Origin: Phoronis australis | Lineage: Eukaryota > Animalia > Phoronida | DNA: 64,000 nt | Assembly (NCBI GenBank): GCA_002633005.1 | Contig: NMRA01000179.1 | Coordinates: 152,252 to 216,251, forward strand | Direction: 5' to 3' | Shown: positions 1-59,500 of the stretch, one piece after another | How positions within the stretch are numbered: position 1 is the stretch's first letter | Layout of the letters: every line of letters begins with the position of its first letter | Program-made: the position numbers and the translations under genes | Notes under the pieces: generated by a model | Seen by the model: the letters and a program-made list of their open reading frames with translations, nothing else | What the model was told of the DNA's origin: nothing | Database searches by the model: none

Positions 1-821
1 AATGCGTACAGACGATAACTTTCATATTTTTTTAACTTTCTGGGCACTTAAGAACTGTGGATTAGGGATCTTTGAAATGCGAAAAACCAAGAGCCTAAAC
101 AGATTTGGAGGTCACTTTCATCTTACTGCTCTGTATTCAGGAACCTAAGCCTTTCATCGAATTTCACCATCGCCTTGCAAGAAGCAATGGATTTCGTCTA
201 GAGATTTGCATGGATTACTAACAAAACTACACGGACATTCCCAGTACGTACACTTTAGTTTCTCTGGTCCCCCACAGGTGGTGACATCATATACTTCCTC
301 GTATTGATCAATTTGTTTCTCAGAAATTTTTTGTTTCTCACGGTCACTACGCGGAAATACATGCTGAAAGATGCACTGCAAGAGCTGACTGATAAAAGCA
401 AACTCAAATGCTATAGCTATCTATAAGAACTTGTAAAATGTTTTGGGCATGGATAAAGACTTTGTCACAATCTGCGAAAGTAACAATTCTCTTAACTGTC
501 ATACGTGTCTACGATGACGATCTAGTAGCATACTAGATTTCACTGAGTTAGGAACAGAAAAACTAACAAGACTCCAATTCTCTGTTCCACACGATGAGAA
601 AAACATGCTTAACGACAAATGACCACTTTGAGTTGATCTGGCTACATCAAAAAAGATTAAACTAATGAAAATCGATATTTATCACCAAATTTCATTTACA
701 ACAAACCACCAGGTCATTTTTGTGAAAAATTGATACATACCAATCTAAAATATCTTGAGAAACTTTCTACCTATGTTGTCGCTATTGCACGTGCCAGTTA
801 ATCCTTCTGATATATATATAT

Positions 822-1693
822 ATATAGATTACTACATGGCGAAGTCGTTATCCCCCGTTATCTAGAGCCCGAGTGGATTTTGGAGAATTATCGCCCGAGG
901 GGCTTTAGCCCCGAGGGTGATAATTCTCCAAAATCCACGAAGGCTCTAGATAAGGGGGGTAACGGCTGAGAACATGTAATAATCTATTTATACCACATAC
1001 TAAACGAGAAACATTGCAATGAATCGATTTACCTTTTCTGACTCTCCACGGCTTTGTAACTACTTTCTATGTCAGAGGCCCGGGGTCGGAGGTCGTGACC
1101 TTTTAAGAAAAACCGGGCTATTTTTGTCAAATAATGCTTTTACTCAAAACCAATTGAAAACTTAAATATAATAGAAATAAATTGAATTTATAAATTAAGG
1201 TTTACCAACTATTATAGCTTAAAACACGTTTTTTTCACGCTAAGCTTCGACCGGGAAATTATCGTCTGCTAAAGTAGGTTACCACTGGTAACTGAATATA
1301 ATCCTCAAGTCAAAGATCCTGACGACACGATACCCGCATTCAAACTGGAGATCGTTGATTTACAAGTAAGAGGATCTGAGAGAAAAAATTCACTGAATTA
1401 AGATATCATTTTATGGAAATTATGTGTCTTATTTTTCGTAGCGTATAAGCACAGTACAATGCGGTTTGTTGAACATGGGATTATTGCGCGTGCTCATTTA
1501 AGTATTCTATTTTCACTCTTGATGACGTCAGTCGCTGCATGGTGTAGTGGTAAAGTCGGCGACCAGCAATTTCAAGGTCCCGGGTTCGACTCCGTCCTCG
1601 GTTTCCTGCCAAATCGTTATCTCACTAGTGAGATAACTTGATGGGTTATTACACGGTTGTATCTGCCATTTGACGCTAATACTGTGGTATAAA
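822..1693 (+). mobile_element. Hairpin-capped non-autonomous element, copy 1 (~870 bp; unclassified, possibly Crypton/tyrosine-recombinase-dependent)
   Basis: Imperfect palindrome at 824-987 (atagattactacatg...catgtaataatctat). The body is bounded by an 11-bp inverted repeat, tttataccaca (987-997) / tgtggtataaa (1683-1693). Homologous copies lie at 15768-16578 (+), 16584-17407 (-) and 26484-26640 (hairpin only). The left end abuts (TA)n at 811-826. Confidence 0.85.
1531..1603 (+). ncRNA. Degenerate tRNA-like Pol III cassette inside the hairpin element (not a functional tRNA)
   Basis: A-box TGGTGTAGTGG and B-box GGTTCGACTCC at tRNA spacing, with a T-arm-like CCGGG-TTCGACT-CCG. The anticodon region differs between copies. 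It is preceded by TGACGTCA (1523-1530) and followed by a perfect 22-bp palindrome (1616-1637). Confidence 0.6.
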
Positions 1694-2279
1694 ATGCTAA
1701 TACTCTTATGTGTCGCTTGCACATGCATATACATCGTTGTGATATAGGCTAGTGTTATTTTTACGACTGTTATCGCGTAGTAATTTCTGCACAGTCGACG
1801 TCATTCTCCATTTTGACAGTCATGTAACTAAACATTCCGATTGAAGTTCGGACATGCGCAGATATGAAACACCTCCGGACTACTACACCCGAATTTTTTT
1901 GCATGGTACCATATGGAGCATTGGGGCCAATTTCGTAACATTAAATTATCCCACGGAAGTGTTTCATGTCTGCACATGTGCCAACTACAAAACAACAACA
2001 AATGATTCTGGTCAACAGCTCAATTATGACATTCTGAAAATACCTGATGTTTTCCGGGTGTGACGATGCGTGCATGGAAGGCTTACGAAAAGCCACGACT
2101 GGTAAAAATAGGTCAAATGGTCAACATTTTGCCTTTTATGCTTTCAGGACAAACAAAAACAAGCAAATGCTACTCGTAGCATTCAAATCAGCTCAAATTT
2201 CATATGTCCAGCCAACCCAACAGTCGCCAATATTTGAAAAAATTTCGAGGCGGTGAACTTCAACAATGGGTAAAAACCT

Positions 2280-2462
2280 CAGTGGCAGATCTACGGGGTT
2301 TAGGATTCTTGCGAATCTGAGGCGCCTAGCGCCGAGCGGGGGGAGCTCGGAAGGGATGTAAGAGTGGTTTTTGTAGCTGATTTCGTTTTCCTGTCGACAC
2401 TTTTTATTTTTGATCCTGTCCGAGGCGTTTATACCCCCTGAACATCCGTAGACCCGACTTTG
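2280..2462. mobile_element. Small GC-rich MITE-like element (cagtggc.gatcta family), degenerate
   Basis: Degenerate terminal inverted repeats cagtggcagatctacgg / ccgtagacccgactttg. Similar left ends occur near 3508 and at 10952. Confidence 0.35.
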
Positions 2463-5400
2463 AAACTATGGAGTGCCAGTCTAATTTATTCTCATGACCA
2501 GTTTTTCACCTCATGCATGCTGGTCCACACAGACTCCACCCAGATAAACAATTCTGCAATTAATGGGTTATTTCACCTATGAGTGTAACCCGTCATAAAT
2601 ACTGTACCACTTTAAATTTACACATGACCATCAGCATATTTTTGCCTTCAAACAAATACTTGGCAGACTGTGTAATGTTCAGCACTGCACCCGACACTCT
2701 GCCTCCAGTGAACACGAAGACTTCAGTAATTTAGCAGTATAACTACAACTGTTAGATGTACGTAACAACCGAATTGTACAGCGCATTTTTGAATGTATAT
2801 ATTCTGTTAAATTTTTTAATTTTGTCATATCTGTATTCAATTCTCTGTTTTATTTATTGCATCTTGTCTATTTTTAATGTTAATGTAGGATTGGACATGA
2901 TGTGTTTATCTGAGTCCCGGCGGGAGAGTAGACATACCCACTAACTGGGCAACCAAGTCTAGATGACTAAATCAAAGGAAATCAAGAGGTTCTTGTCGCC
3001 ACCTAGATCAGACACTTGCCCTTCCAGTAAGTCTCTCCTGTGGGATGCGCACGCGCATTTTCAAAGACCGTAAAAGGGTCATATGATACGGAGTGCCAAC
3101 TTGCCGTACAGTTTTCTCATGATTCCTGTCAAAATTATCAATGGAAAGTATGCTACGCAGATCAATTTCATGCCGAATCCGACTAATGTATTGACGATTA
3201 CACTCTGGGGAACGATTTTGTTCAAGCCTCTGCAAATGCGCTTTACATTGCATTATCCACATTCAATACTTATACACACACACGTACACGGATCAAGGAT
3301 ATCGCGAGGGGACTTTTATAATGCATCCTCTCATGGGCAGAGGGGTACCTCTAAATCCTGATATGATCTAATGTTACACTGCAATCGCCAGACCGTCGTC
3401 GTATACACGAGAGGCCGATGTGCTCTGTGAGTGTAGACTCAAAGTGTTCGAATTTGACGCGTCCATATGCACAATTAATGTCCCAGTTTGTTTTGTTTGT
3501 GTTGATCAGTGGAGGATCTAGGATGTCATAAATGGTGGGTGAAGTAATTGTAGTTCAAAGAAAAATGTCGTACTAAGCTCTTTAAACGGCATGCTTACGA
3601 CATGTGGTTTGACCGTGCCGGTATGAGAGGAAATGTGGGTCCCGGAAATCCGCCTATGACAATGGGCAAAGTTCGGATTACCAAGGTAATTACTGACACA
3701 TTTCCATAGGCATGCTGAAAAGTTCAATATTTTACGGAAATGGTTTTATCAATTTCATTAATTTTAAACATTTGACTTCAACGAAGCATTTTAAAATGTA
3801 ACCAGCCAATATGTTGAGAGGAAATTCAAACTGAATCATTTAGCGTGTGCTGTGCCTTTCCTTCATAGAAAATCCATTACGTTCGCTGTACATAACACAA
3901 AAGTAATGTAAGAGTTGCAACTAATTTGAAATTGTTTTCAAAGCTAACACTACAATACGTTTGGAGATAAGACTGGCAAACAAAACATTTTTACACAATA
4001 GAACGCATAAACAACCCGCACACAATTAGCTCGCGAGTTTTAGTTAAAGTTTAAAGGAAGTTGAACTTCCACGTGTAACTCATTTTGCAAACAAAAAGTA
4101 TAATTTGCAAACGCGTCTCTCATTAGCATACATAAATGTCGGATTGTGCAAGTACATGGCAGTGCTACTTATCTACAATACATTTGATTACTTAGTGGGG
4201 TAGTAACACCTTCAACTATTTAAACAATCTACGCTAATAGCATGCACATAAGATTGTAATTAACCCATTTTTTAATTTCGTAGGCCTACATATTTTTTCA
4301 TATATTCAATTACAGATTCGCTAGTAATTGCTCTCAGTCATACGAAATATGTGTAAGGACAAGTTGGTGTTTATCTGATAAGCGCATTAGTTTGGAGTCA
4401 TTTAAACACTGCCAGAAAGAGATCTTTTATAACGTTCGTTTTGAATATGGCTGCTGCCAGTGATCAGTAACATACAAACTAACGGTAGTGCTACACTCAT
4501 GCATAGTAACACTAGCAGAATACAGCTTAAAAACCTGTTCAAGATAACAAAGCGGTACGTGTTCTTCCATAGGGTCCTAATGAGAAAGACGGTATTGGAA
4601 AACTGAGTAATAAATTAGCATAAGAAAGAATAAAATATGATATCAAAAGGTTAATAGCTAGCATTAACTGTGTGAAAATGTATCATTAAACGTTACACAG
4701 ATACCTGAAGTAAAAGATTCATGTACCTATAGATTCACTGTGACGGACATCTGTGTCAACTGAGACGGTTCATATCAATAGAGCAGAAAATCTTGCATCA
4801 TGTTGGGAGTTTCTGTGAACAGGGCCTTTAAATATACGCTGATGGACCTGTGTGTGAATTTTTATCGGAATGTAGACAAATCTGTTGTGCGAACTGCACT
4901 GTAAATTTTCACGGTTTTTTCAGGGTTTCGAAATATCAAATATATCGGGTCCATTCTAGCACTTTTTAGCTTATCATCGGAACAATCGATTTAAACTACC
5001 TGTTTACAATCAGCAGTACAATCGTTTTCTACTAAGCCAACTATTTTATACGCACATTTGAAATGTTGAAGTCGTTCTTCGCCAGATAAGCAACAACCGG
5101 GAATTCCGACAAACACGCTGTTCAAATATAGGCCTACGGCGTCCAGAGATGGAGCTTGCATGTATACTTGGGATAGTAGACGAAAGGCAAAAACAGATAG
5201 GGGCTTACCATCAGAAATTCTCAGTACATGTTTATGCAAACATCCGCCACGACAATCTCTGTTTTATAGTCCTCTTCTTTCGTTGACTAAGAAAAAGGAT
5301 AATTAGCCTTATCTCGACTGTACGGTCCAAGAGATTCCCGATATAGACACATTTCAAAAATCCAGGTTTGAATTAAACATTTTTTTGCAAAACTTCATGT

Positions 5401-6227
5401 TCCCATGTCCAGAACACACTTAATACAAAAACAAACAAAAAATGTGCGGTATGGACAACGAATTATTGTTAAATGAATTTTGTCAAATCGGTGATTCGTT
5501 GTGGAAAATAGGTGGAAATCGGGGAAAAAATTGTGAATCTGAAATGAAATGCCTAGCTGGGCACCACTAGCGGGATTCACGACGGAGGGGAATAAATTGG
5601 GTGAGGGCACTCATGCCTTGTTTCTGTAATTTGTGGAGCTACTGAGGTTACCAAAAAGCTGTCAAATGATTGCTGCAAGGTTACGGCTACCTGTGCGGTC
5701 TACAACGCTGAATTGCAAAGAACCCCCAAGAAGCCAAGCACCCAACCCGACGGTGTCGATAGTGAGATGGTTAGGGGTCTCAGTATCCCGGAATGTTGAT
5801 GCGTGACTTTCGTCATTTTGAACAATCCGGCAAAGCGCACCATGGCTTGCAAACCGCAATATAAGTTCTAGCATGCCTGCTAGGATTGCCAGTAAACAAC
5901 ACATCGATTCAGCGTTGGAGGATATTGCCAGATTCGCAGCATAAACAAGGTGGTGAAGACTCAGTCGTTAAACGGAAAAAATCCTCTCACAATTAGTATT
6001 TTTCTCATTGTAACGAGTTCAGTATGACCCCATTATTCAACTTGAGGCCGGGAGTTGTTTTGGCATTTAGTTCTGCAGATGCGGAAGGCATGTGTGTTAT
6101 GCATCTAACAATCGAAAATAACAAGAACATTCACGATAACTATTTTATTGCTAAATGCCACGTTCATCATGTATACAAATACGCGACTTCAAGTGAGAAA
6201 TATTTTATTGATAGCGAAATGAATGTG

Positions 6228-6386
6228 CATGGGCGGTGCAGCACTGAATAAAGTACGTGGGGGGGCTAAAGCCCCCTCAGCCCCCTTGTGGTGCACCGCC
6301 TACAGACCCGGCCGTGTGCGGCGCAGCACTGAAAAAAGTGGTGGGCTATAGCCCCCCCCCAGCCTCCCGTTGGTGCGCCGCCCATG
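6228..6386. mobile_element. Small GC-rich MITE made of two related ~70-bp units
   Basis: TIR catgggcggtgca (6228-6240) / tgcgccgcccatg (6374-6386). The internal unit gcagcactgaa..aagt..gggcta.agccccc occurs twice. A reverse-orientation relative is at ~37876-37931. Confidence 0.6.
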
Positions 6387-6550
6387 ATGATCTGTCCGGA
6401 GCGATTTTGTTCACGGTGGAAAACGCATGATAATTAAAGAGATACAAGTTAACACCGCTTTTCAGATTACGCTTTCATGAGCATCCGTACTTGTGTCTTC
6501 AGTTCGACCGGGGAAACCCAACGCTACGTTTTCCCGGACGGACTGGCCGT

Positions 6551-6708
6551 TTACCTTCTCGACGTCATCGGAAGGGTGCGAGTGAAATGCTGCTAGGCTA
6601 GGTATTTACATGCTGCAATCTGGACACATTTCCACAGTGAGCATGTAAATGCTTAGCCTGTCGCCGCAGCATTTCACTCGCACCCTTCCGATGACGTCGA
6701 GAAGGTAA
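6551..6708. mobile_element. Foldback MITE, 158 bp
   Basis: Perfect 43-bp inverted repeats at 6551-6593 and 6666-6708, plus further inner pairing (aggctaggtatttacatgct / agcatgtaaatgcttagcct). Confidence 0.75.
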
Positions 6709-9364
6709 CGTACGACGTTTGTCCCTACTCATTGGACTTTCAATTTACGGAAGTGATGACTGCGGTCAGAAACTTGTACAGTGTCACCTGTGTTGCTATT
6801 CCTTTTAGCAAATCGAACTATTTTTGAGCGGGCTCTCGAAATGTCGTCGATTTCCCGGCTCGACTTGTTTTTTAGCATAGGTAAGATGACACGTGTACTA
6901 CACGGTGTCGCCACCTTACGAAGTTGTATTGCCATTAGCGCCATCTTTCAGTCAATAAATACATACTTGATGAAACATTCCTCTTATAAGAAGAATGTTT
7001 CATTTTGTAGAAAGCTTGACTACAGCAAGAGTCTAATAACTGCTTCTACTTAAAAGTGATCTCTTAAAACATTTGAATGGTCGTTTTAAAATAAAATTCA
7101 GATCATATTGACATAATTGTCGTCACGGTCAGTTTCGACTTGTACTAGCTGCAAGCGAAAATGGTTTCAAACTGACAGTTCGTTCATGGTCCGTGTTTAC
7201 AATGGGACTGTCAGTTTTTTCTATGTATAGAAATTTGCATAAAATAACGAGTTGAGTGTACGTCATTTTTTAACGGAAAAGCGGGTTTATAACAGGTTCG
7301 TCTTGAACAGCGCCGCCCACTGAGCATTGCGAGCAGTGTAATAACCCGGTAGATAAGATGTACTTTTTTCTACTGAGTTGTGCCTGCACAAATATAGATT
7401 TTTTGTAGTCCACTTTCTAGAGCTACCTAAAATTTTGATTATTCACTGCCAGTGTAAAATAACAAAACTTTAATTTTTATTTAGTGGTTATGTCTTTTGC
7501 TCTGGCGACTTTGGTGCAGCAGTATTACACCAGGAGGTTCTGTACTGCCGAACCTCGCACTCATCTTTATTGCCTTCTAAAACAATGGACTATCACAGTA
7601 GTCAGAACCCGTGCTAACATTTGAGGGGTTTAACAACTTGTGGGGTGGGGTGGGGGCATCCCCAATTGTAGTTGAATATGTATCTGCACCCAGCGCGTGA
7701 TACTTCAGTTTTAATCCGGTCTTATGAAACACATTGGCACTTTCTAGTATTTTTTAGGATAAAATAATACCGTGTATTTAAAATTTTACGCCAGTGCTTC
7801 AACCGAAATAAATGAAAACAGCACGCGTGGACGGAGGAACCTTCAGTCTGTAGTCAACTCCGAACACGATTGGTCTTAAATGTCACAAAAACATTCAAGT
7901 CATGGATAGATGAAAAAACAAGTCGTGAGTTCGCGAGATGTCGATAAGTTGTGCATTTTCCTAATTGCATTCTATTGATGATAATGTTTTCAGGACACAA
8001 CGCAAACACACGAGCGAGTATTAGCGAACACCGGTATGGTTTCCCCGAAATTTCTTGTAATATTTCAGCTAAAACGATTGAGAAAGGAAAGTAGGCTTCG
8101 TTTGCAAATAGTGAGTTTACACCCAACCTACAAAATTTAAACGAAAATAGTTATCGTAATTACTGTTGTCACACCTTCCTTCGGTAGAATAACTTTGACA
8201 AGATTTAACGTAGCGTCTTATGCCTTCCATGCACAACGTAAGTATTGGGAAAGTTAATTTATTTCTGTAATAAATGCCATGGGCCCACTGTACAAAAGAA
8301 CAACATGTAACATACTGAAGAGGTAAGCAAGCTTTCACGGATTGAAAAGCATAAAATAATATTTCCATAGCATCATCAGTTGTTGACATTAATTTATTGA
8401 ACTTTAAAAAAGTAAAATGTACAGTTACATTTACTTACCTGTTCATCATCTAAGATGCGACCTTTTCTTTATCAAGTACAAGGTTTAAGTTGTTTTACAA
8501 ATTTCAAGCCTTGTCTTTTTATAGATATAAGATAAATATGGTTTAATAACCCTTAACCTAAAAATGAGATCATCTTCGCCGCTTATTTACAACGTCATGC
8601 CTCACTCACCAGCCACATTTATTATCGCATTGTTGTCGCTGTCACGTGTCTCTCTAGGGCATGTTGGTAATGCACTTCACAACACGCTCTATCACCAAGA
8701 ACACACAAACAGACTGAATCATACACACTGATACAGGTAAGTTGTTTTTCTTTAATACCAGTCGATTGTTCACGGTTTGCTTCGGGGAGAAGTTGCCATT
8801 ATTTCCAGAACATGGATCTTCTGTTACTGTAGTTGCAAAACAGCGAAATTATATGTTTTTCATGTACGCCAATATGATCATGTTATTATTTGTGCGCAAT
8901 GGACCTGCGTGAGGAATCTGCTCATAACACATTGCAACAGTTTACTTGTCTACCATTTCAATTTCCTGTGTTGTTTCAGTTGTAAAGCTTTGTAATTTGT
9001 GAATCACAATATGAATACATGGGTTGTGTTGATAATTGCAATTGTAGTAGAATATAACAACATAGGTTATACAACAGTAGTGACGTTGCTAAACACGATT
9101 TCAATATACACAAAAAATTCGGCCGACTCTTTTGGTGAAATACGGTCACAACGCCCAGCGTCCGATCAAACACCATCACTCACAAGGTGTCGCAAGTGAG
9201 ACAAGGGCCCTTCCACCTCCCTAGAAATGCTTGCATTCAGAGCTGAGTTCTATAGACCGTGAGACACTGGCTTGCACTTGCGGAGGAAAATCTTTGCTGT
9301 GATTGAACGAAAACAATGAATTCAATCCCACTATTCATCATTCCAAGCTCGCCAGTCAATCACT

Positions 9365-9942
9365 CTCTCTGTTTCCCTGCGTGTCCAATAGGGGGAAGGG
9401 GACACGCAGGTATCGTTCAGCAGCACGTGTTTTATCCCTGTTTGATGTAACCTTGGCAGTCATTGGTTAGCTTGACAACAAGACCAGAAAATGGCGGACT
9501 GTGAACGATTTTTACACTTGTCTAACTACAACAAGTTTTCTCTCTGCATTGTCAATAATGTCATAAAGACGGAGTACAGCTATCTGCAACCTGGACAGTG
9601 TATGAGCTTCACATCGGTAACCGAAAAATACACTCTTGCTCTATTGCCAACAGGCTATTAAAATGTACACCAAAAAGGCACAACCACAACTTTCCGATTC
9701 ACATTTCTTGAACATATCCCAATTAATCACCGATATGTCTGTACAACAGACCACAAACTATATCATTGCACATTTACACTTTCTCCATCAGCCATGCCGG
9801 TTTGTTTACTTATAAAGCTGCTACAAGTTGAAAATTCGAATAGCCAATCAGAAACTCAGGTGTAAATTTTTTGCCCAAGAAAAATCAACTGATACCTATG
9901 TGTCCCTTTTTCCCTAGCGGACACGCAGGGAACCAGCAAGGC
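9365..9942 (+). mobile_element. Internally deleted Academ(H)-like DNA transposon with a RecQ-type helicase N-terminal fragment
   Basis: ~50-bp imperfect TIRs (9368-9417 and 9887-9937, core ttccctgcgtgtcc..ggacac..aggtatc). A 56-aa ORF at 9491-9661 ends in YSYLQPGQ...TLALLPTGY*, which resembles the RecQ Q-motif plus the start of motif I (LPTGxGKS). An 8-bp direct repeat caatcact lies at 9357-9364 and 9943-9950. Confidence 0.55.
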
Positions 9943-10788
9943 CAATCACTTTGGTGACCGCCATTTTACTTCTAGGCATACTTGGGAAAAATCGCTTTTT
10001 ACTCAAGAATTTTCGAGGTATTGCGATATCTTGCTTTTCCGCAAAAATTAGGTGTGCCAAACGCTGTCCACGTAAGGACGTGGGTCCCTTATCACAGGAA
10101 CGTCCCACTCTGATGACCTACTTTTTACTCTCGCTAGTCATGTAGGGGAGCGTTCCGTAAACGGGAGACCATCACGAAAACGTAACAATACGCAAGACTT
10201 CCCGAGACATCATCATTCATGCAAGCAAAGCACGTGACCACATTACCTTATCTGAGTGACCCCGTGCTATTTTATTACAGACTTCTTTCACTATTCGCCA
10301 TTCTTACGTCAACAAATTTCAACTGCTCCACTGTGAGTTGTAATGCTGGCAGTAAAAAGTGAGTGGGCAGTTATATATCGTCCTGATAGCTTCAGTTGAA
10401 CCCAAAAGAGTGTTGGCTGCCTTTCCTTAGTTTCGAAAACTCGACCGATTTTAGAATGCACTATTCTACTGCGGAAAACGAGAGTTGAATTTGAGATGTA
10501 GACAATATACCACATAACACAACTTTAAGGTGCACTGATAAATTTATCAAGTTGATCTCTAAAAACCTGCTCGAAAAGACGTTTCAGTCATCTCGCAGTT
10601 CGCCCGCATTCAAAATTTGAAAACCCGGTTTTATTGAAAACGCACCCCTCCTTACATATCAAGACCTTTAACATTCTGACTAAGATACTTTCAATCGAGA
10701 TATATTTTAATAGTTTTCGACTGAAAACATTTTAGGCAGATTTTTGTAATCAAAAATACAAAAGAAGACTCTTAACTATACACGTATT

Positions 10789-11102
10789 CAGGCCCGTAGG
10801 AAGGCAAAAATTATTGAGGGGCACAAACCGTATCGACTTCGCCAAACAGCCCCTCTCCCCATCACCTCCGCCACCTCCCCCTCCCCTCCCCGTGCTCCCA
10901 ATGTCACCATATTTGTACCGAATCTCCTACGTCCGCCTTGGGTGGGGGGCACAGTGGCGGACTTAGGGGTGGCCAAGGGGCCATGGCCCCTTGAAATTCT
11001 CCCAGATTCCAGTTGACAGTTCGGGGTGCGAATTTCTGACGGGTAAAACCCTGGCTAATACTCTGCCCTGCCCCCCAACTCAAAATCCTGAATGCGTCCC
11101 TG
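10789..11102. mobile_element. Two adjacent GC-rich MITE-like fragments
   Basis: caggcccgtagga...tcctacgtccgccttg (10789-10940) and cagtggcggacttaggg...atcctgaatgcgtccctg (10952-11102), with degenerate CAG...CTG termini and poly-C/G tracts. Confidence 0.4.
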
Positions 11103-12503
11103 GGACAATCCCGGGGATGAAGTCATCAAGAGTTGACTAAACGTGAACCAACACGGAGAGTAAAAATGGGCCTAGTACCAGTACACTGACCGATAGCGAG
11201 GAGCTGCCTCAAGTAGCTATAGCTGAGATCTAACAGTGTAAGAAATACGAAATTCCCTATGAACTAAAGCTAGTTGCTGGTCAGCTCAACTATGATTCAC
11301 TTGAGACAGGCAGCTCGTACCGGCCGTCTCCGCTCACTCCAAGATAAAGATTCGTTTTATTTTGATCCAGTTCGGAAAAACTTTATTTTATTATGGTCAT
11401 TCTTTGAAGGAGTTTTTTTGAAAAGGTGAGGTGGTCCCGAAGTCCCTGATAAGGTGCTTTTGGGGCTGTTTCAAAATTTATAGTTGCAACGCGACCGGTA
11501 GTCTAGTTTCTGGTGGCTGGGGAAAAGGATAGTGTGTCCCAAAAACGTACACACTTCCTGAACGCCTGGAGTTTAAATTCTGTTCCCGTGGATCACTGAG
11601 ATTCTGCGCGGGCCTACTGCATGATTACATCTTATTTTTAAGGTGGGTACATGTACGTCAGTCATGACGTAAACGCGAATCAGGACAAGCAAGCAATTTA
11701 GTTTGAAGAACGAAAAATCCATTGCTCAATACCACTGGAAACTAAAAACACCACGGAAGTGCAAAGACAACCTTTTATTTATTCTAGGATTTTTAAAACG
11801 ATTTTTATCTACAGTTTGTGAGTCAGAATTCATCAATGTCTCTGAGAGTTATTTGAGATATGCAAAAATCGTCTGTAAGTGTACTTTGCTATTGGGGGAT
11901 CGGATTATAGAGTTTTTCCAACTTCAGGCCGCAATTAAATTCACTGAAACATCAATTCTTACAAGATTAGCTTCTAATTGTCAAAAATCATCTATGAATA
12001 AATCGATTTTCGTAGATACATAAACAAGTAAATCCAAAACCAACAGATTTGTTTATCAAAACGGAATGTTATGAGCAATTTCCGCATCCATACTTGCAGA
12101 TTTTTGACGGGTAAGCGGGGGAATATGGGAGGTGTATTTCTGCTCATTTCTGAGGTACCTATAACGGTTCACGAGGTAAACTTGATCTCCACTGACAAAA
12201 AAACGCTGAAATCTTTGTTCATGATTGCGAGAGTTCATTGAGTACCCTCTTTCGACATGTACACGGTTATCACAAATACACGTAGTAGCCTAGACATCAG
12301 TGTTTTCCACATAATATGGGTATTCCTTACAAACAACTCGCAGTAACCATCTTGAAAAAAAGATACTATTCTTGTGATACTACAGGAAACTGTAACATTA
12401 TTTTATAACTAACCATCGGAAATAGTCCTTTCGAGTAATTACTCTGCGCGTGTAAGCGCAGAGTACTGTTGTTCCTGAGTTTTCTTCAATTTTATTCTTC
12501 ATA

Positions 12504-14073
12504 TTACTCTGCGCGTGTAAGCGCAGAGTACTGTTGTTCCTGGGTTTTCTTCAATTTTATTCTTATTCTTCTTATTCTTCTTATTCTCATTCTTCTTCCG
12601 ACCAACTGTGAGGCTTAATAACTCCAAATTGGGTGCAGGTAAAGTCTTTAAATTCTGCATGCCACTTTTGATACTACATGAATTTTGATTCGTTATATAC
12701 ATGTAATCATATTCCATATTGCACCGGAAGAGGTCATTTGTTGCAAAGGTCATGTAATTTTCAAAATGCTACTCCTTCTTCATTTTTAAAGCTATTCTTT
12801 TCAAATTCGGTGCACAGGTATAAGTACTGACGTAGAATCTCCTAAACACCTGGTAGAGTCTTGCCCAGTTTTTTATAGGCTATGGAGCAACCTACTGGAT
12901 GGCACTGTTACATGCCTACAACATATAGTGTGCATGGCAACAAATGGAAACGTCTGTCCGTTTTCCTAAAGGAGACTGGCAGACTTGAAAACTTTCTTCA
13001 CGAGGAGCCATAATTGGGGTCTCGTGCCTTTGCTCAGGTGTTTTGTGCAATGGGCCCAACCATGAGGTCTGCGCACGTCTGATGCACCGCAAATGACATC
13101 AGACCACCTGCACTGTTTTTTTTATAAGTCAACAAGGCAATTTAAAAACTCACTTTTCTAAGTAATCGGGTCATCCAATCAGGTGAAATAGGTCAAAGGT
13201 CAATAAGTGCAAACTAAATTTTTGAGCTAGACACTTCAAATTGACAGATCTGATTGGCACAGGTAATTCAATTCGGAATTCAAAGTTTCAGGTCATTTAG
13301 TGCAAGCATGGGGTCATTAGGTGCACTTTTCTTCTGAAAATTTGACCTTTTCAATCAGCAAGTATTCCGATGTGTCAACCGTTAGACAACTGTGATTCTC
13401 AGCGTTAAACACATTTTCCATGGGCTTTGTAATAATTCTCCTAAAGATGCTTAAAATGCACCGGATAAGGTCAATTAGTGCAAAGGTCGTGTAACGTTCA
13501 AAATGTTATATCTCTTACGTTTTTCAAGGAATTCTTTTCAATTTCAGCACACTGGTGTAAGTCAACATGCCAATTGAATACCCTACTTTACTTCGCAATA
13601 GGCCTAACCAATCAGAAAAAATAGGTCAAAGGTCATTGAGTGCAAACTAAAATTTTGAGCTAGAGACTTCAGAATTACATATCTGCTTACTAAGTGCGGT
13701 TGAGTTTGAATTCTAAATTTTCAGGTCATTTGGTGCACCCGTGGGGTCATTAGGTGCATTTTTCTTCTGAAAGTTTGACCACTTCATTCATCTTGTATTC
13801 TGAAGTGCTTAAAGTAAAACATATGTGATTATTAGCATTAACCACTCTTTTAATCGAGTTAGCAATTACTCCCTCATCGGGGCTCATAATGCACAGGAAG
13901 AGGTCAATTAGTGGAAAGGTCATCAAAAAATTAATATGTAATTTCTCCTACAATTTTAAAGAATTCCTTTTCATATTGGTAAACGGGTTGCTGTCAGTGA
14001 CTTCCCATAATAATTCCAGTAATACGCACGCGCAGAGTCCGTTATTGTCACGCCGTGACAATAATCTTTCTAG
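12504..14073 (+). mobile_element. Inner HINE/DINE-1-like element with ~433-bp internal tandem units
   Basis: 5' subTIR at 12506-12516, then a microsatellite. Units start tgcac.gga...ggtca at 12720, 13458 and 13890 (spacing 434 and 432 once the LINE insert is removed). 3' subTIR at 14028-14038, hairpin at 14042-14064, terminal CTAG at 14070-14073. No TSD. Confidence 0.78.
12826..13122 (+). mobile_element. 5'-truncated non-LTR retrotransposon 3' end (I/Loa/R1-group-like)
   Basis: 7-bp TSD tataagt (12819-12825 and 13123-13129); the empty site is visible in the paralog near 14307. It translates as ESPKHLVESCPVFYRL (end of the ORF2 CCHC knuckle) and, after a frameshift, KWKRLSVFLKETGRL...*, followed by a short UTR. 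Confidence 0.65.
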
Positions 14074-15767
14074 TTCTTATTCTTATTCTTCTTCCGACCA
14101 ACTTTGAGGCTTAATAGCTCCAAATTGGGTCAGGTACGGTCTTTCAATTCAGCATATGATTTTTGACAGTATATAAATTTTGATTGGTTACATAATCATA
14201 TTCCATATTGCACCGGAAGAGGTCGTTTGGGCAAAGGTCATATAATTTTCAAAATGCTACTCCTTCTTCAGTTTTAAAGCTATCTTTTTCAAATTCGGTG
14301 CACAGGTATAAGTCAATAACACAATTTAAAAAATTACTTTTCTAAGTAATCGGGTCAAGCAATCAGGCTAAATAGGTCAAAGGTTATTAGGTGCAAACTA
14401 AAATTTTGAGCTAGACACTTCAAATTGACAGGTCTGATTGGCACAGGTAAATCAAATCGGAATCCAAAGTTTCAGATCATTTAGTGCAAACATGGGGTCA
14501 TTAGGTGCATTTTTCTTCTGAAAATTTGACCTTTTCAATCAGCAAATATTCCGATGTGTCAACCGTTACGCGCAGAGTCCGTTATTGTCACACCGTGACA
14601 ATAATATTTCTTGTTCACAAATAGTGGTCTTCAGGTTCTTCAAAATTCTATCCGACCGATGGCGGCAATCCTACTCACGTATTTTTTCACATTTTTGGTT
14701 AATTGTTTCGAATGGCTGTGCTGTTCACGAACCTTCTGTGTTTTTGTTTTGATGAATTTAGAATCTCAACTTCCATAGAGAATACTTGGAAGTGTCGGAT
14801 TTACATGTATAGAGCGACAAAGGGACATTTCCCCCGAACTGCTCCACCGAGAGAGGGTACCGTATGAAATGGGACACCTTAAGGCTAAACATCTTAGAAA
14901 AAAGGATGACAGTGCATTCCACCGTCACGTGGTCCCAAAACGATACAGGGAGTGACCTCCTTCAACATGACAGCCGGTTGCACGATTTCACAAAAAAGGA
15001 AAATAGAGGTAATCGATTCCAACATTGGACCATCTCTCCGTAAGCAGCCCCATAAGAATTTGTCACTAAAAGCACAAAAAGGGTGGCCACTTCAATGTCA
15101 TCAATGGCCTCCTTCAAGGGCGGGGCCCCTAAATATGAAAATATCTTATTTTCAAATATCAAGAAATGCGCAGCAATTGATTTTATCTGTCAGGTCATTA
15201 ATTTTTCTCAAGTAACAGTTTCGAGAAAAAAAAATAAAACGAAAGTTTTCTCCGTTATCCATTGGCAGAGAGGGGCATCTGGAAAAATATAGTTTTGCAT
15301 TCGCAAAATTGACTTATTGAATTTAAAAATCCATTAAATTAGTACAATCCGCAAAAGTTTCGCTTTACAAATTTTCTCGATTTTTCGAAATACATGTATG
15401 ACTGATTTCATGCACGTTTTCAAGTGCATTTAGACGACCTGTGCTGCAAAGGCAGAGACCCTAACGACAATGTCCTGGCCAGAGTACTCAAAAGGTAAAC
15501 CATGCACTGATGCCGAGTTGTTAAACGTTCTTTTGAATTTTCTCTGTTATCCGTATTTCGCAGTCTTTCTTTTCTTGGCTGTTCCCGGCCCCACGCCGGT
15601 TGCCACGGTTTAAACCTGACGCCTGAAAATTTTTGTGGGGGCCCGGTCTTGGTAGAGAGCCCTCGATGAAGAAATCCACTGAACTCCTTCTGTTTGTTAT
15701 TTATACACCTTGTATTATCTTAATGTACATGTATACATGCATTCGAAATTTAATTAGGTAACAATAA

Positions 15768-16578
15768 ATATAGATTATTACATGGCGAAGTCGTTATCCC
15801 CTCGGGCGATAATTTTCCAAAATCCACTCGGGCTCTAGATAACGGGGGATAACGACTGAGAACATGTAATAATCTATTTATACCACATACTGAACGAGAA
15901 ACATTGCAATGAATCGATCTACCTTTCTCGACTGGCCTCGGCTTTGTAACTACTTTCTATGTCAGAGCCCGGGGGTCGGAGGTCGTGACCTTTCAAGAAA
16001 AGCCGAGCTATTTTTGTCAAATAATGCTTATACTCAAAACCAATTGAAAATTTAAACAAAACATAAATAAAGTGAATCTATAAATTAAGTTTTAGCAACT
16101 ATTATAGCGTACTACACATTTCATCACGCTAAGCTTCCACGGGGAAAATATCGTCTGCTAAAGTAGGTTACCACTAGTGATTATAATGCTCAAGTCAAAG
16201 GATCCCGACTACACAATACCCGCATTCAAATTGGAGATCGGTCATTTACAAGTGAGAGAACACGATAGAAAAAAAATCACTGAATTAAAATATCGTTTTT
16301 ATGGAAATTATGCGTCTTATTTTTCAAAGCGTATAAATGTCGGTACTATAGCCTTTACTGAACATGCGATTGTTGCGCGTGCTCATTTAAGTATGCTATT
16401 TTCACGCTTGATGACGCTAAGTGCTGAGTGGTGTAGTGGTAAAGTCGGCGACTCGAAATTCTTGAGGCCCGGGTATGAGTCCGGCCTCGGTTTCCCGCCA
16501 AAATATCTCACTAGTGAAATAAGTTTATGGGATATTACACGGTTGTATCTGCCATTCGAGGCTATTATTGAGGTATAA
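15768..16578 (+). mobile_element. Hairpin-capped element, copy 2 (flop hairpin with deletion)
   Basis: Colinear with 822-1693 along its length; tRNA-like cassette at ~16423-16492; ends ggtataa. Confidence 0.85.
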
Positions 16579-16583
16579 TTCTG

Positions 16584-17407
16584 TTTATACCTTAATATTA
16601 TCCCCGTGTAATAACCCATATACATGTAGTTATCTCACTGGTGAGATAACATTTTGGCGGGAAACCGAGGCTGGGTTCGAACCCGGGCGGCATGAGTTTT
16701 GGTCCTCGACTTTACCACTACACCACTCAGCGGCTGACGTCATCGAACGTGAAAATAGAATACTTAAATCAGTACGCGCAACAATCGCATGTTCAACAAA
16801 GGGCACTGTGCCGAGATGTGTACGCTATGAAAAATAAGACGCATAATTTCCATAAAAACTACATTTTAATTCAGTAAAAATTTTCTCTCCTGTTCTCTCG
16901 CTTGTTAATCACCGATCTCCAATTTGAATGCGGGTATCGTGTCGTCGGGTTCCTTTGACTTGAGAATTATACTCTGTTACCAGTGGTAACATACTGTAGC
17001 AGACGATAGTTTCCCGGTCGAAGGTTAGCGTGTGTTTTAAGCTGTAACAGCTGGTAAACCTTAGTTTATAAATTCATTTTATTTCTATTTTATTTAAATT
17101 CTCAATTGGTTTTGAGTAAAAGCATTATTTGACAAAAACAGCTCGACTTTTCTTAAAAGGTCACAAACCTCCGACCCCGGACCCCTAACATAGAAAGTAG
17201 TTACAAAGCCGAGGAGAGTCGAGAAAGGTAAATGGATTCATTGCAATGTTTTTCGTTTAATATGTGATATAAATAGATGATTACATGTTCTCGTGGATTT
17301 TGTAGAATTGTCATCCTCGGGGCTAACGCCCCTCGGGTGACAATTCTTCAAAATCCACCCGGGCTCTAGATAGCGGGGGATAGCGACTTCGCGATGTAAT
17401 AATCTAC
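16584..17407 (-). mobile_element. Hairpin-capped element, copy 3, tail-to-tail with copy 2
   Basis: Its reverse complement is colinear with copy 1. The tRNA-like cassette at ~16664-16734 has the B-box GGTTCGAACCC. The hairpin at ~17274-17407 has part of one arm deleted. Confidence 0.85.
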
Positions 17408-18913
17408 ATTTATCGTAATTATTTGATATCATAAAGGATAAGTGAATAACACCCACGCCTACGTAGCACGTAAGTAAAACAAATGTGCATGGTTTGGTCT
17501 AGAATTATCAAACCCACAACATTGTTAAATCCAATTCCTTTCATTAGTAAAAATGTGGTAATATCTGCATAGATGCAATGGTAACCAATTCAACAATTCT
17601 TAAAATTAGGATGTAGTATTAGAAATTAAAAGACATTCCTATCTGCCAGTAATCTTTTATTCCGTGTGCTCTTGTCTTGGTTAAATACAATATTCTAGAT
17701 AGGGAACAACATAGATTAAGTGTAGTAACTGCTGCACGACTGATATGATCACGTTTTAGTTATGGTCGGCCGAGGAGTGCTCGCCAAAATATTACCTGCT
17801 GATGCTATTTAAAGATCTTTTGAAACAAAATACCATTTGTTGATAGTATTTTTTCTGATAACAAACAAATAATGTTTCTGAAAAAATTGTCTGAATACGG
17901 TACATTATTAATAGGATCCAGGGATAATTGAAGTCAATGGCTGGCAAACATTCATAGAAGTCTTTATTCTAAACAATACCAAACACATAGACTTAAGAAT
18001 TAGTTAGACCCCTCACCAAAAATCTTATTAATGTTTGTCCACGCTTACACACATATACCTTACGCCGAACTTCAGGCATTTACGTTACACGGAGATTTAA
18101 GCCAAAACTCACGACTGATCTCAAGTCTCTCTTTAAAGCTGCACTTAATCCAAAACGCAAGTCTCCGCTTAAAGCTGTATTTCATCCTGTTTAGCTGGTT
18201 AAAGACGAAAATCGTATAGTTACATGTAGGTCTTTCACTCATTAACTCTCTTAAAATCGGTCTCATTGTAGTCCTTAGCGAGTTAGTATTCTATTTCCGT
18301 TTTCAGCAAAAACATTCAATTGGTACCACCAGTGACTCAAAAAATCTTCTGAGTTTATTAAGATTGGCCACCGTGGCCCTAATGACGCATGATGAACTCA
18401 TTCGATGTTACATGAGTTGATGACGGAAATAGAATCGCATCACGGAAAAGACTGTCACGAGCCCAATTTTATGAATGTAAAAGGTTTAATTTGATTTTCG
18501 TTTCTTAGCCAGCTAAAGAGCGCGAAATCTGGCTTTTAGTGTAAAAACCTCATTAAAGCGGCAATTAAACCCCGCGCCACTCAAGTCATGATTTTGTTAT
18601 TGCTGAACCACGTCTCACGGTTGCAGGTTGTACATGTACAACGGACTTTGTGTGCTTAACAGTTGCCAAACAGTTTTTGTTACTGACTGATGCCGTGTGA
18701 CTGAAACGAAAGTTTTATTTAGACCACTTACCCGCGGCTGTGGAATTGGTCTTAATTCGTTCTGTACTCGTATTAGTAATCATGTGTTCGACACTTCGTT
18801 ACTGAGGTGACCTCGCGATCGTTCTCAGTGCATATATGATACGGCATGATAAACCAACATGTAGCGCCTGGTCCGTTTTCAAGTTGCTAGTGAACTACTT
18901 CATGTTACAATCA

Positions 18914-21631: not shown

Positions 21632-22110
21632 TGTCAAATCTCTTTGTTGCTTTTTCGCGCCAAGCGTCTACAGAGCGATGCCGTGTTACTGATGTCAACA
21701 TCCAGTTAACAAGACACGAGAAACACAGCGGGGAGATACTGCGCTTAATCCAAACAGCAGAATATTGGCCAATCTGATGGCAAAACACAACTGCGCCTTG
21801 GGCCCTAAGGTCTTTCACACCAACATGTGGATCGATGGTATTGTTCCACAAATTACAAATTAGTTGAAATCACGGCTGCTTAATCTGCTGTAATCTGCTC
21901 GGTCTGTTATTTTCTGAAAAGTTGTCATCAGCTATTCTTTACGTGATTGTGCACTAGGTTGACTTTTTATCGATTCCGAGTGCATTAAAGCCTTCGATTT
22001 CATCCCTCAATGGGTTAGACGACGTGGTCCAGATACTAATAATTTAATTCCCTTGTGTTTTGTAATCTTACATCAAATCATGAACTGAAATAGCAATGGC
22101 AAAATTTATC

Positions 22111-26069: not shown

Positions 26070-26365
26070 TGTAGGACCTTATCGACTTGTCGTGTATTTA
26101 GTCAAGTATGTACAAAACTGTACTTTTTAACTCAGTAGAAGTATGTATTTTCTGGAACTTGAAAGCCTAAGTTTGATATTTGACTATTTGTCAATCTGCT
26201 GTTATTTGTATCACGTGACCATATCTTTCTGGTAAAATTTAGCAAAAGAGAAAGGGGTAGCAACAGCAAAACAACGATATCAATAACATGACCAAATTTC
26301 GTTGGATATAAACTTTCAAGACGAAATCTTAAAAACGTTGTTACAGTTTTCTAAATTGTCATTTC
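26070..26365 (+). repeat. Old interspersed repeat; inverted homolog at 52140-52442
   Basis: tgtaggaccttatc...ttttaactcagtagaagtatgtattttctg...taaaatttagcaaaa...agcaaaacaacgatat aligns by eye to the reverse complement of 52140-52442 with many substitutions. Confidence 0.6.
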
Positions 26366-26483
26366 TTTTGTAATTTAAGCAATTTTTTATAAAAAGTATA
26401 AATATCATATTTTGATTGCACCTAATGCAAAAGTGAAGGTTTTAAGACCAATTCCTTATGGCGTGTTCGAGAACAGTGTATAA

Positions 26484-26640
26484 ATATAGATTATTGCATG
26501 GCGAAGTCGTTATCCCCCGTTATCTAGAGCCCGAGTGGATTTTGGAGAATTATCGCCTGAGGGACGTTAGCCCCGAGGGTGATAATTCTCCAAAATCCAC
26601 GAGGGCTCTAGATAAGGGGGATAACGACTGAGAACATGTA
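26484..26640 (+). mobile_element. Solo terminal hairpin of the hairpin-capped element (copy 4)
   Basis: Near-identical to 824-978 and stops at gagaacatgta with no body. Confidence 0.85.
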
Positions 26641-29600: not shown

Positions 29601-29973
29601 CTTTGACGAATTCAACTTTGGAAGGTTGTCTCACACGAGACAAAAATTTTGTCTCTTGTGAAACAACGTGACTTCCCTGCGAGCGCTGTTTAGGTAACAC
29701 GACTGTTACATTCGGACCTCACTAAATGGCGAAGGTTGAATGTACATGTAATGTAGTGATTTTGTGGCGATCGCCAAAATAAGGCAAGTTGACACTTTTT
29801 TGTTTTCTATGGTTATACTGTGCTCGGAATGAGACTAATAAATTTTATCTGAATCGTTTCATTTTTTTCTCAGCACATAAGACATTTGTTTCTGATCCGC
29901 CGATATAGCGCTCAGACTTTGGTGTGTTCAGGTCTAGCGTCTCGCATTCGCAGTATACATACAGGTGTAGGTT

Positions 29974-35050: not shown

Positions 35051-35685
35051 TCAACAGTGAAGTTAAAACAATCAGCAATGAACGTTCGCCAATTTTCTAC
35101 ACCGACATGTGCCTGTAAGCCATTCACATAGGAAACCACGTAAGCACTCCGGCATTTCCGTCAGAAAAATAACGTAGAAAATAAATCTGAAACTAAATAA
35201 GGCGATCCAGATCTTCCCAAGGATACTATTGTTTCATGAAATGTAGAATATAAATCGGTAAATAAAACAACAAGAATGGATCAACTGAAATTTGAAATTT
35301 TCGGAAGTTATAACATCCGAAAATTTCAAATTTCAGTTGATCCATTCTTGTTGTTTTATTTACCGTCAGAAAAAGACATGAAAATGCAATGAAAGTGTAA
35401 CAATTAGACAACTGAATGGAAACGAAACATTTCCAGCACAACGTCTATACAATACGTGAAATGGCTTCCTTTCAACACATCAAACAGTGGGTTACAGTTA
35501 CAGCGTTCCAGAAACTCAAGAGTATATTTTTCAGGAGAGCCGGCTGTTCAGCGTGTAAAACATGGATGCGTTCAGTAGACCCCGAAACATAAGTTAAAAC
35601 TTTTAGCGAAAAATCTTCGATTACGCCCACAATCCAACAATTTTGCAAGGATAGGTTGGTCAGCTTCCGAGTACACATGTTCATG

Positions 35686-38980: not shown

Positions 38981-59500
<20,520 letters not shown>

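What the first reader, a model, noticed from the sequence alone, without database searches (positions are those of the whole stretch)
824..17407. Flip/flop isomers of a ~165-bp terminal hairpin in a repeat family
Seen: in copies 1, 3 and 4 the outer arm reads ...tcccccgttatctagagcccgagtggat..., and in copies 1 and 4 the inner arm reads ...atccacga.ggctctagataagggg.... In copy 2 (15801-15856) the inner arm is the reverse complement of copy 1's OUTER arm with one mismatch (ccactcgggctctagataacggggg). The asymmetric flanks (gcgaagt / actgagaa) keep their places, and a deletion fits cccct microhomology in the flipped form. Copy 3 shows a compensatory pair change (aattAtc/gaTaatt to aattGtc/gaCaatt). 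Established: flip/flop ends arise from hairpin-resolving replication (parvovirus, poxvirus) or from recombinase inversion. Inference: this element's hairpin is a working replication or recombination structure, which is not a standard MITE/SINE architecture.
Basis: partly seen in the sequence, partly recalled or inferred. Interest (0 to 1): 0.78.

Follow-up and report, generated by a model that had tools for sequence, protein, structure and literature searches.

The report
Rare flip in strand-polar transposon hairpin
The reversed hairpin arm is real but occurs in only about 1-2% of reads from a repeat with roughly 400 copies, so it is likely an ordinary DNA-copying slip, while the hairpin's fixed one-strand pattern of G-A mismatches likely marks a folded-DNA signal used to move this gene-less jumping element.

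Summary
The letters are real: copy 2's arm matches the reverse complement of copy 1's left arm at 59 of 60 bases. The flip/flop reading is not supported. In raw reads of this ~400-copy family, the reversed-arm form is 39 of 3,576 reads by one marker and 64 against a depth of ~3,700-4,200 by another. It is at most about a tenth, and no reciprocal left-side form reached 1%. One template switch explains copy 2. The compensatory pair is 1 of 29 (163 of 500 shuffles match it).

The hairpin ends an ~870-bp non-coding element with ATAA at both ends. Three tandem GA/GA mismatches, a bulged G, a G-T wobble and a GCGNNAGC loop all favour one strand, and the family keeps that polarity. The element is likely a non-autonomous Crypton-type (tyrosine-recombinase) transposon whose folded single strand would be the substrate. 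No recombinase was found and no genome was held. This scan noted the same hairpin design before in other animal genomes.

The parts
818..1692 (+). Copy 1, full-length element of about 870 bp (hairpin, body, tRNA-like boxes, tail); sits at the end of an (AT)8 run at 810-826
822..990 (+). Terminal hairpin of copy 1; outer arms 826-839 and 973-986, inner arms 843-903 and 908-967
   Evidence: fold -64.3 (+) against -57.9 (-) kcal/mol for 818-995
841..969 (+). Strand-polar features: tandem GA/GA mismatches 841-842/968-969, 871-872/939-940, 897-898/913-914; bulged G 857; G-T wobble 893/918; tip 902-909 (family majority GCGTTAGC, copy 1 has a private T at 904)
   Evidence: pair table; G at 904 in 1,850 of 2,290 reads; copy 3 tip
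989..998 (+). 10-bp inverted repeat of the tail end (1683-1692); joining tail to head extends the stem by 12 predicted pairs
1523..1593 (+). tRNA-like A box (1540-1550) and B box (1583-1593) preceded by TGACGTCA (1523-1530); not called a tRNA by ARAGORN or Rfam
   Evidence: 2 matches in window, 0.01 expected; box consensus recalled
1616..1637 (.). Perfect 22-bp palindrome near the tail, sharing GTTATC with the hairpin arms
15764..16578 (+). Copy 2; hairpin reduced to left flank plus reverse complement of the left arm (15798-15857) plus right flank
16585..17413 (-). Copy 3, tail-to-tail with copy 2 across 6 bp (16579-16584); 30-bp deletion in the right arm; carries the one compensatory pair
26480..26640 (+). 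Copy 4, hairpin only, truncated; 2,322 reads of other copies continue from here into the body

Best explanation
The hairpin is one end of an ~870-bp, gene-less repeat of roughly 400 copies that is likely a non-autonomous Crypton-type (tyrosine-recombinase) transposon, and copy 2's reversed arm is likely a rare replication template-switch accident, not a working flip/flop isomer. Shown: the anatomy, the ATAA at both ends, the one-strand polarity of all consensus mismatches, and the rarity of the reversed arm. Inferred for copy 2: a polymerase copying the right arm switched at the 14-bp arm repeat to the opposite strand, copied the left arm inward and returned at a run of C's, giving inversion and deletion in one event. 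Inferred for the family: one strand folds, stabilised by three tandem G-A pairs and a GCGNNAGC loop; tail and head join into a circle whose junction lies in the stem; a recombinase supplied in trans would exchange one strand with an ATA-containing target, as integron integrases do with attC. A flip would reverse two of the three G-A tandems against the third, so flipped copies would be dead ends.
For: Rarity: 39 of 3,576 reads (1.1%, interval 0.8-1.5%) carry the flip-type C; 64 reads show the copy-2-type strand switch (1.5-1.8%). None of the GA sites appears among the 40 variant rows shown in either call; the rows shown went down to about 14% and 12% share. A single template switch fits copy 2 with 3 mismatches, the same as flip plus deletion but in one step. 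Partial, one-site conversions and many distinct internal deletions occur: X2 contig with TC at 26533-4 followed by a deletion, X5 loose end with TC but the bulge kept, and skips of 36-105 bp. Template switching is known to homogenise arms and invert spacers (PMC8604942, passages). Polarity; loop variant GTCA in 314 of 2,143 reads keeps GNNA, and a further G-A mismatch is in 1,266 of 2,896 reads; GCGNNAGC including GTTA is an unusually stable DNA mini-hairpin (PMC13037366, passages). Ends: ATAA before 3 of 4 heads and at 3 of 3 tails; the base next to the head is C or T in 678 of 1,996 reads, so this is target microhomology and not a strict duplication, as described for Cryptons (PMC13465315, passages; PMC3212892).
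Against: No recombinase is linked: no genome was held, the 150 longest of 320 open frames in the window hit no recombinase, HUH or transposase family, and five collection scans found no long copy (one search gave two unrelated bacterial 24-mers). Kojima and Jurka found no terminal repeats in animal Cryptons (PMC3212892). The read tables hide many rows (182 and 322 variant rows, 151 and 83 joints), so the flip share is bounded at roughly a tenth rather than measured exactly. Retention of mismatches could simply reflect a few master copies. The predicted strand difference is modest (2.6-6.4 kcal/mol), and the special stability of tandem G-A pairs is recalled; one search found no paper for it. 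GCGNNAGC alone is not enriched in the window (11 against 8.5). Some reversed-arm reads may be library fold-backs.
Confidence: 0.6

Rival explanations
1. The hairpin is a parvovirus- or poxvirus-like replication terminus whose resolution makes flip and flop isomers.
For: Copy 2's arm is the reverse complement of the left arm with flanks in place. A parvovirus end can be reported in one conformation only (PMC1185569, one passage), so a single orientation does not exclude every hairpin-primed route.
Against: Reversed arms are about 1-2% of reads, not a second mode. The left-side marker (loss of the bulged G) is not listed at 1%. Copy 2 holds only half a flipped core. No Rep/NS1 frame was found in the window.
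Confidence: 0.05
2. The mobilising tyrosine recombinase itself occasionally inverts the core between the 14-bp arm repeats, so flips are a low-rate by-product of transposition.
For: The reversed form recurs (35 read starts; two X4 contigs summing to depth 210.6 against about 8 for a single copy).
Against: Reciprocal left-side change was not seen at 1% (with 7 indel rows and 83 joints hidden). Conversions have variable end points and often come with deletions, unlike a site-specific inversion. The GA-centred quasi-palindromic sites all point the same way, which would favour excision, not inversion (sequence).
Confidence: 0.13
3. The element is a non-autonomous rolling-circle (Helentron/HINE-like, HUH) element read in the reverse direction, with an oversized terminal stem-loop; copy 2 is still a template-switch accident.
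For: HUH enzymes act on single-stranded hairpins (PMC10288648, passages). Read in reverse, both ends touch T-rich sequence, and HINEs are flanked by T's without target modification (PMC4067079, passages). An internal 10-bp inverted repeat resembles a subterminal repeat.
Against: HINE palindromes are 5-10 bp and the 3' subterminal repeat lies 38-60 bp from the end; here the stem-loop is about 165 bp and the repeat is about 175 bp from that end. The base adjoining the head is the least conserved of the ATAA (66% A), unlike a TT target. No central tandem repeat was found in the copies.
Confidence: 0.15
4. The mismatch pattern has no function: it came from internal duplication of a CCCGAGGG unit in one master copy and was amplified passively by some other transposase.
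For: The GA sites share sequence context, so they are not independent. Copies are only about 85% identical and conversion after insertion is rare, so retention is expected without selection.
Against: Bulged G, G-T wobble, GNNA loop and the 44% extra G-A variant are separate features that favour the same strand. Related hairpins in organisms B and C show no listed change at the GA sites apart from one X5 contig (low depth).
Confidence: 0.07

Closest known systems
Template-switch arm homogenisation and spacer inversion at inverted repeats (PMC8604942, passages read)
   Same: One arm is rewritten as the reverse complement of the other, with switches at short shared sequence; intermolecular switches invert the interior.
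   Different: Here the rewritten stretch is 45-60 bp and the return switch at a C run also deletes the left arm and tip.
Non-autonomous Crypton DNA transposons: CryptonA/CryptonI derivatives (PMC3212892, parts 1-2 of 7 read), CryptonV (seen only as cited in PMC8869645), Eulor5/6 (PMC5753468, passages; Fig. 1c not held)
   Same: Gene-less, high-copy, no matching terminal inverted repeats, short direct repeat that looks like target microhomology (PMC13465315, passages); one of four copies adjoins a TA microsatellite, a CryptonV trait.
   Different: No recombinase partner was found. The papers read report no terminal repeats for animal Cryptons and describe no long strand-polar hairpin or tRNA-like boxes.
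Integron attC sites (PMC2727003, passages read)
   Same: An imperfect palindrome whose two strands fold differently; an extrahelical G and unpaired segments mark one strand.
   Different: attC uses R and L boxes and an IntI integrase; here the marks are tandem G-A pairs and a GNNA loop, the host is an animal, and no enzyme or reaction is shown.
Parvovirus flip/flop termini (PMC1185569, one passage read)
   Same: Imperfect terminal palindrome that can be written in two complementary forms.
   Different: The second form is about 1-2% here, is partial, and no Rep/NS1 is linked.
Helentron-associated HINE/DINE-1 elements (PMC4067079, passages) and Replitrons (PMC10288648, passages)
   Same: Gene-less derivatives with hairpins, no true target duplication; Replitrons have short direct terminal repeats.
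   Different: Hairpin size and position do not fit HINEs; the Replitron passages name plants, algae and protists as hosts.

Membership tests
Flip/flop hairpin replication terminus | Both complementary isomers common among copies | tested here: not met
   39 of 3,576 reads and 64 joint reads at depth 3,667-4,186; upper bound about a tenth from hidden-row cut-offs
Flip/flop hairpin replication terminus | Reciprocal exchange of both arms | tested here: inconclusive
   No row for loss of the bulged G at 1% or 2%, but rows and joints are hidden and reads are unphased
Flip/flop hairpin replication terminus | Cognate Rep/NS1 or resolvase | tested here: inconclusive
   None in 150 of 320 open frames of the window; genome not held
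Template-switch mutation at an inverted repeat | Arm replaced by reverse complement of the other arm, bounded by microhomology | tested here: met
   59 of 60 bases; switch points in the 14-bp arm repeat and a 3-4-nt C run
Crypton (non-autonomous) | Ends shared with an element encoding a tyrosine recombinase | not testable with these tools
   No genome; collection scans gave no copy of the family
Crypton (non-autonomous) | Short direct repeats at the termini that reflect target microhomology, not a duplication | tested here: met
   ATAA at 3 of 4 heads and 3 of 3 tails; last base C or T in 678 of 1,996 reads; no empty site was available
Crypton (non-autonomous) | No terminal inverted repeats joining the two ends | tested here: met
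   The tail's inverted partner is internal (989-998), not at the head
Crypton (non-autonomous) | Circular intermediate or head-to-tail junction | not tested
MITE | Terminal inverted repeats at both ends with a target duplication | tested here: not met
   2,322 reads run on from the hairpin into the body, so the hairpin is not a free MITE; ends are not inverted copies
tRNA-derived SINE | tRNA-like head at the 5' end and a simple-repeat tail | tested here: not met
   A/B boxes lie about 720 bp inside; no tRNA by ARAGORN or Rfam; no repeat tail
Helentron/HINE | 12-15-bp subterminal repeats, 5-10-bp 3' palindrome within 8-35 bp of the end | tested here: not met
   10-bp repeat, 165-bp stem-loop, 22-bp palindrome 55 bp from the tail (criteria)
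Helentron/HINE | Insertion between T residues | tested here: inconclusive
   Both ends are T-rich when read in reverse, but the adjoining base varies in about a third of reads

The most novel reading that the evidence does not exclude
An animal tyrosine-recombinase transposon family moves as a folded single strand: tail and head close into a circle, and a 165-base hairpin studded with tandem G-A pairs, an extrahelical G and a GNNA mini-hairpin tells the recombinase which strand to use, the eukaryotic counterpart of integron attC recombination; the rare flipped copies are natural loss-of-polarity mutants for testing it.
Probability: 0.35. Interest if true: 0.8.

Novelty: new variant of a known kind. 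Interest (0 to 1): 0.4.

Why it matters
The flagged flip is an ordinary mutation type and matters little by itself. The hairpin design matters more. How animal Cryptons move has only a proposed model (circular intermediate, by analogy to prokaryotes; PMC3212892). A strand-polar end kept across hundreds of copies gives a concrete, testable substrate. If the folded-strand route holds, it would extend integron-style recombination to animals. Four paper searches listed no title or abstract opening that describes such an end for Cryptons; Repbase reports and most subscription papers are outside that library.

Tried and rejected
Whole-genome collection of copies: no genome held. Pattern scans for further copies or an autonomous partner: viral contigs 0, 0, 0; metagenomes 1 hit, a 22-base match at a contig end without the rest of the element; prokaryote genomes 0 and 2 hits limited to 24-27 bases. 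Pfam scan of the 150 longest of 320 open frames of 55 aa or more: only LRR, SIK3 UBA and kinase domains; the other 170 were not scanned. Rfam on 700-1800: only sub-threshold microRNA hairpin matches, rejected as generic stem similarity. ARAGORN: no tRNA. Left-side flip joints could not be read because deep X2 contigs filled the 15 joint rows shown. The CCCCT microhomology argument was rejected (it predicts five C's; copy 2 has four). Covariation across the window's copies was rejected as evidence (only 3 sequences have both arms). A paper for tandem G-A stability in DNA was not found. Look-ups of earlier notes by sequence, by motif words and near this place gave nothing; the same-genome look-up gave unrelated findings.

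Full report
Setting. The window is animal DNA of about 39% GC with two single-frame LRR genes and exons of a SIK-type kinase. No whole genome was held, so the family was studied through four copies in the window and through public reads.

Observation. The hairpin occurs at 818-990, 15764-15880, 17413-17270 (minus strand) and 26480-26640. Copy 2's arm (15798-15857) matches the reverse complement of copy 1's left arm at 59 of 60 bases and differs from copy 4's right arm at 6 bases and one gap. The flanks stay in place. That part of the finding is right. Three details are weaker than stated. Copy 3's left arm differs from the quoted string at two bases. The junction overlap is only the run of C's; a CCCCT overlap in a flipped parent would leave five C's and copy 2 has four. 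The compensatory change is 1 of 29 pairs in the three copies with both arms, 3 pairs are broken, and 163 of 500 shuffles reach the same count.

Anatomy. The hairpin is the end of a longer element. Copies 1, 2 and 3 align over about 870 bp at about 85% identity in the body. In one search, 2,322 reads run on from the end of copy 4 into the body with 0.88 agreement, so copy 4 is a truncated copy. On the other side 1,359 reads leave the element before 26480 into unrelated AT-rich DNA (agreement 0.34). All three tails end in GGTATAA and three of four heads are preceded by ATAA. The last base of that ATAA is C or T in 678 of 1,996 reads, which fits target microhomology better than a strict duplication. 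The last 10 bases of copy 1's tail are the inverted repeat of 989-998, so joining tail to head extends the predicted stem by 12 pairs. The body holds tRNA-like A and B boxes about 720 bp from the head (2 matches in the window, 0.01 expected; box consensus recalled), with no tRNA call, and a 22-bp palindrome at 1616-1637. Depth of about 4,200 on the hairpin against 9-11 in flanking bins gives roughly 400 copies; this is a rough figure from a Hi-C library.

Population test of flip/flop. Raw reads of run X10 were laid on copy 1 (16,954 reads) and on copy 4 (8,147 reads). On copy 1, 39 plus 25 reads switch strand at 843-968 and 845-966; I read these two rows as the copy-2-type junction, 64 reads at a depth of 3,667-4,186, or 1.5-1.8%. 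On copy 4, the flip-type C behind 26615 is in 39 of 3,576 reads (1.1%; 35 starts). These are largely the same reads seen two ways, not independent counts. Contigs of a second sample show the C at single-copy depth in X2 (45.7 against 47.8), not in X3, and in two X4 contigs summing to 210.6 (single copy about 8). Loss of the bulged G, the left-side marker of a true inversion, is not among the 12 indel rows shown at a 1% threshold (7 hidden). No GA site is among the 40 variant rows shown in either call; 182 and 322 rows were hidden, and the shown rows went down to about 14% and 12% share. Reads from flipped copies could also be laid backwards or clipped, so the defensible statement is at least 1% and at most about a tenth. 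A bimodal population is excluded. The form is probably not unique to copy 2, though some reads may be library fold-backs.

How copy 2 arose. A flipped parent plus a deletion and a single template switch both fit with 3 mismatches against copy 4; an unflipped parent with a plain deletion does not (30 in an ungapped count). The single switch needs one event. The family shows the expected scatter: many internal deletions of 36-105 bp with different end points, an X2 contig with TC at one left-arm GA site followed by a deletion (table 5c), and an X5 loose end with TC at that site but the bulge kept (depth 2). Two of the four window copies have internal deletions. Template switching between imperfect inverted repeats is known to homogenise arms and invert spacers (PMC8604942, passages).

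What the hairpin keeps. In copies 1 and 4 the shared non-Watson-Crick positions are three tandem GA/GA mismatches, one G-T wobble and one bulged G. The majority tip is GCGTTAGC (G at 904 in 1,850 of 2,290 reads; G at 26564 in 2,058 of 2,368). GCGNNAGC with a GTTA loop is a stable DNA mini-hairpin with a sheared G-A pair (PMC13037366, passages). The commonest loop variant (314 of 2,143 reads) stays GNNA, and the commonest stem variant (1,266 of 2,896) adds another G-A. On the other strand these become T-C, A-C and a TAAC loop. Predicted folds favour the top strand by 6.4 and 2.6 kcal/mol. That tandem G-A pairs in this context are stable in DNA is recalled; one search found no paper. Copy 3 has lost one GA (GG at the 871-872 site), and the GA sites share context, so they are not independent. 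I first read the GA pairs as direct-repeat cores; the folded-strand reading came from earlier unchecked notes of this scan and was then checked here for this family only.

Mechanism. Best reading: a non-autonomous Crypton-type element. Cryptons lack terminal inverted repeats, have 4-6-bp direct repeats thought to be recombination substrates and are proposed to move through a circle (PMC3212892, parts 1-2 of 7); the repeats reflect microhomology with the target (PMC13465315, passages); some CryptonV families target microsatellites (PMC8869645, passage), as copy 1 does. The same paper reports no terminal repeats for animal Cryptons, and no recombinase was linked here, so membership is not shown. 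The folded-strand step is inferred by analogy with attC, where an extrahelical G directs strand choice (PMC2727003, passages). My rough odds: copy 2 an accident 0.8, Crypton-type 0.65, folded single-strand substrate 0.35-0.45. Rivals are a Helentron-like element read in reverse (criteria from PMC4067079; PMC10288648), rare inversion by the recombinase, true flip/flop replication (PMC1185569) and passive amplification of a functionless pattern.

Literature and limits. Ten paper searches were run. For papers not read further I saw listings and abstract openings only. The four on Cryptons and Eulor repeats showed no description of such an end. No supplements were opened; those of PMC3212892, Fig. 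1c of PMC5753468 and Repbase entries may show related termini. The scan had noted this hairpin design in several other animal genomes and template-switch flips in many; those notes are unchecked.

Verdict. Observation partly confirmed, flip/flop not supported, element real and unusual in its end design. New variant of a known kind; interest 0.4.

Noticed in passing
window 15858-17292: Copies 2 and 3 lie tail-to-tail 6 bp apart and form a 1.4-kb imperfect inverted repeat (81% by BLAST); the tail of one may have been the target of the other.
   Followed up: partly
window 1523-1593, 16673-16727: tRNA-like A and B boxes, preceded in copies 1 and 3 by a TGACGTCA motif (CRE-like, label recalled), are carried inside the element; copies may be Pol III templates.
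   Followed up: partly
window 810-826: Copy 1 adjoins an (AT)8 run; the other three heads do not.
   Followed up: partly
window 6551-6708, 29625-29667, 35256-35365, 51093-51153: Other long palindromes unrelated to this family; their predicted folds show no tandem GA/GA pattern.
   Followed up: partly
window 12438-14616: Composite repeat with 433-bp and 65-bp periods and two small terminal hairpins; unclassified.
   Followed up: no
window 26070-26456 and 52046-52440; 26684-26736: Two further repeats flank copy 4: a 390-bp family at 68% identity and a ~50-bp stretch at depth about 220 against 10.
   Followed up: no
window 18914-21667, 29974-32394, 38984-59500: Two long single-frame LRR membrane-protein genes and exons of a SIK-type kinase, all on the minus strand.
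   Followed up: no
L002:2850-2873, L003:5001-5024: Two bacterial contigs hold the same 24-base hairpin tip (GA/GA under a GCGNNAGC loop) without the rest of the element; L002's looks like a REP-type palindrome (label recalled), perhaps a convergent single-strand signal.
   Followed up: partly
runs X5, X6 on window 822-1121: Organisms B and C hold related hairpin and body sequence at low depth (9 and 20 contigs laid), so the family is not confined to one species label.
   Followed up: partly
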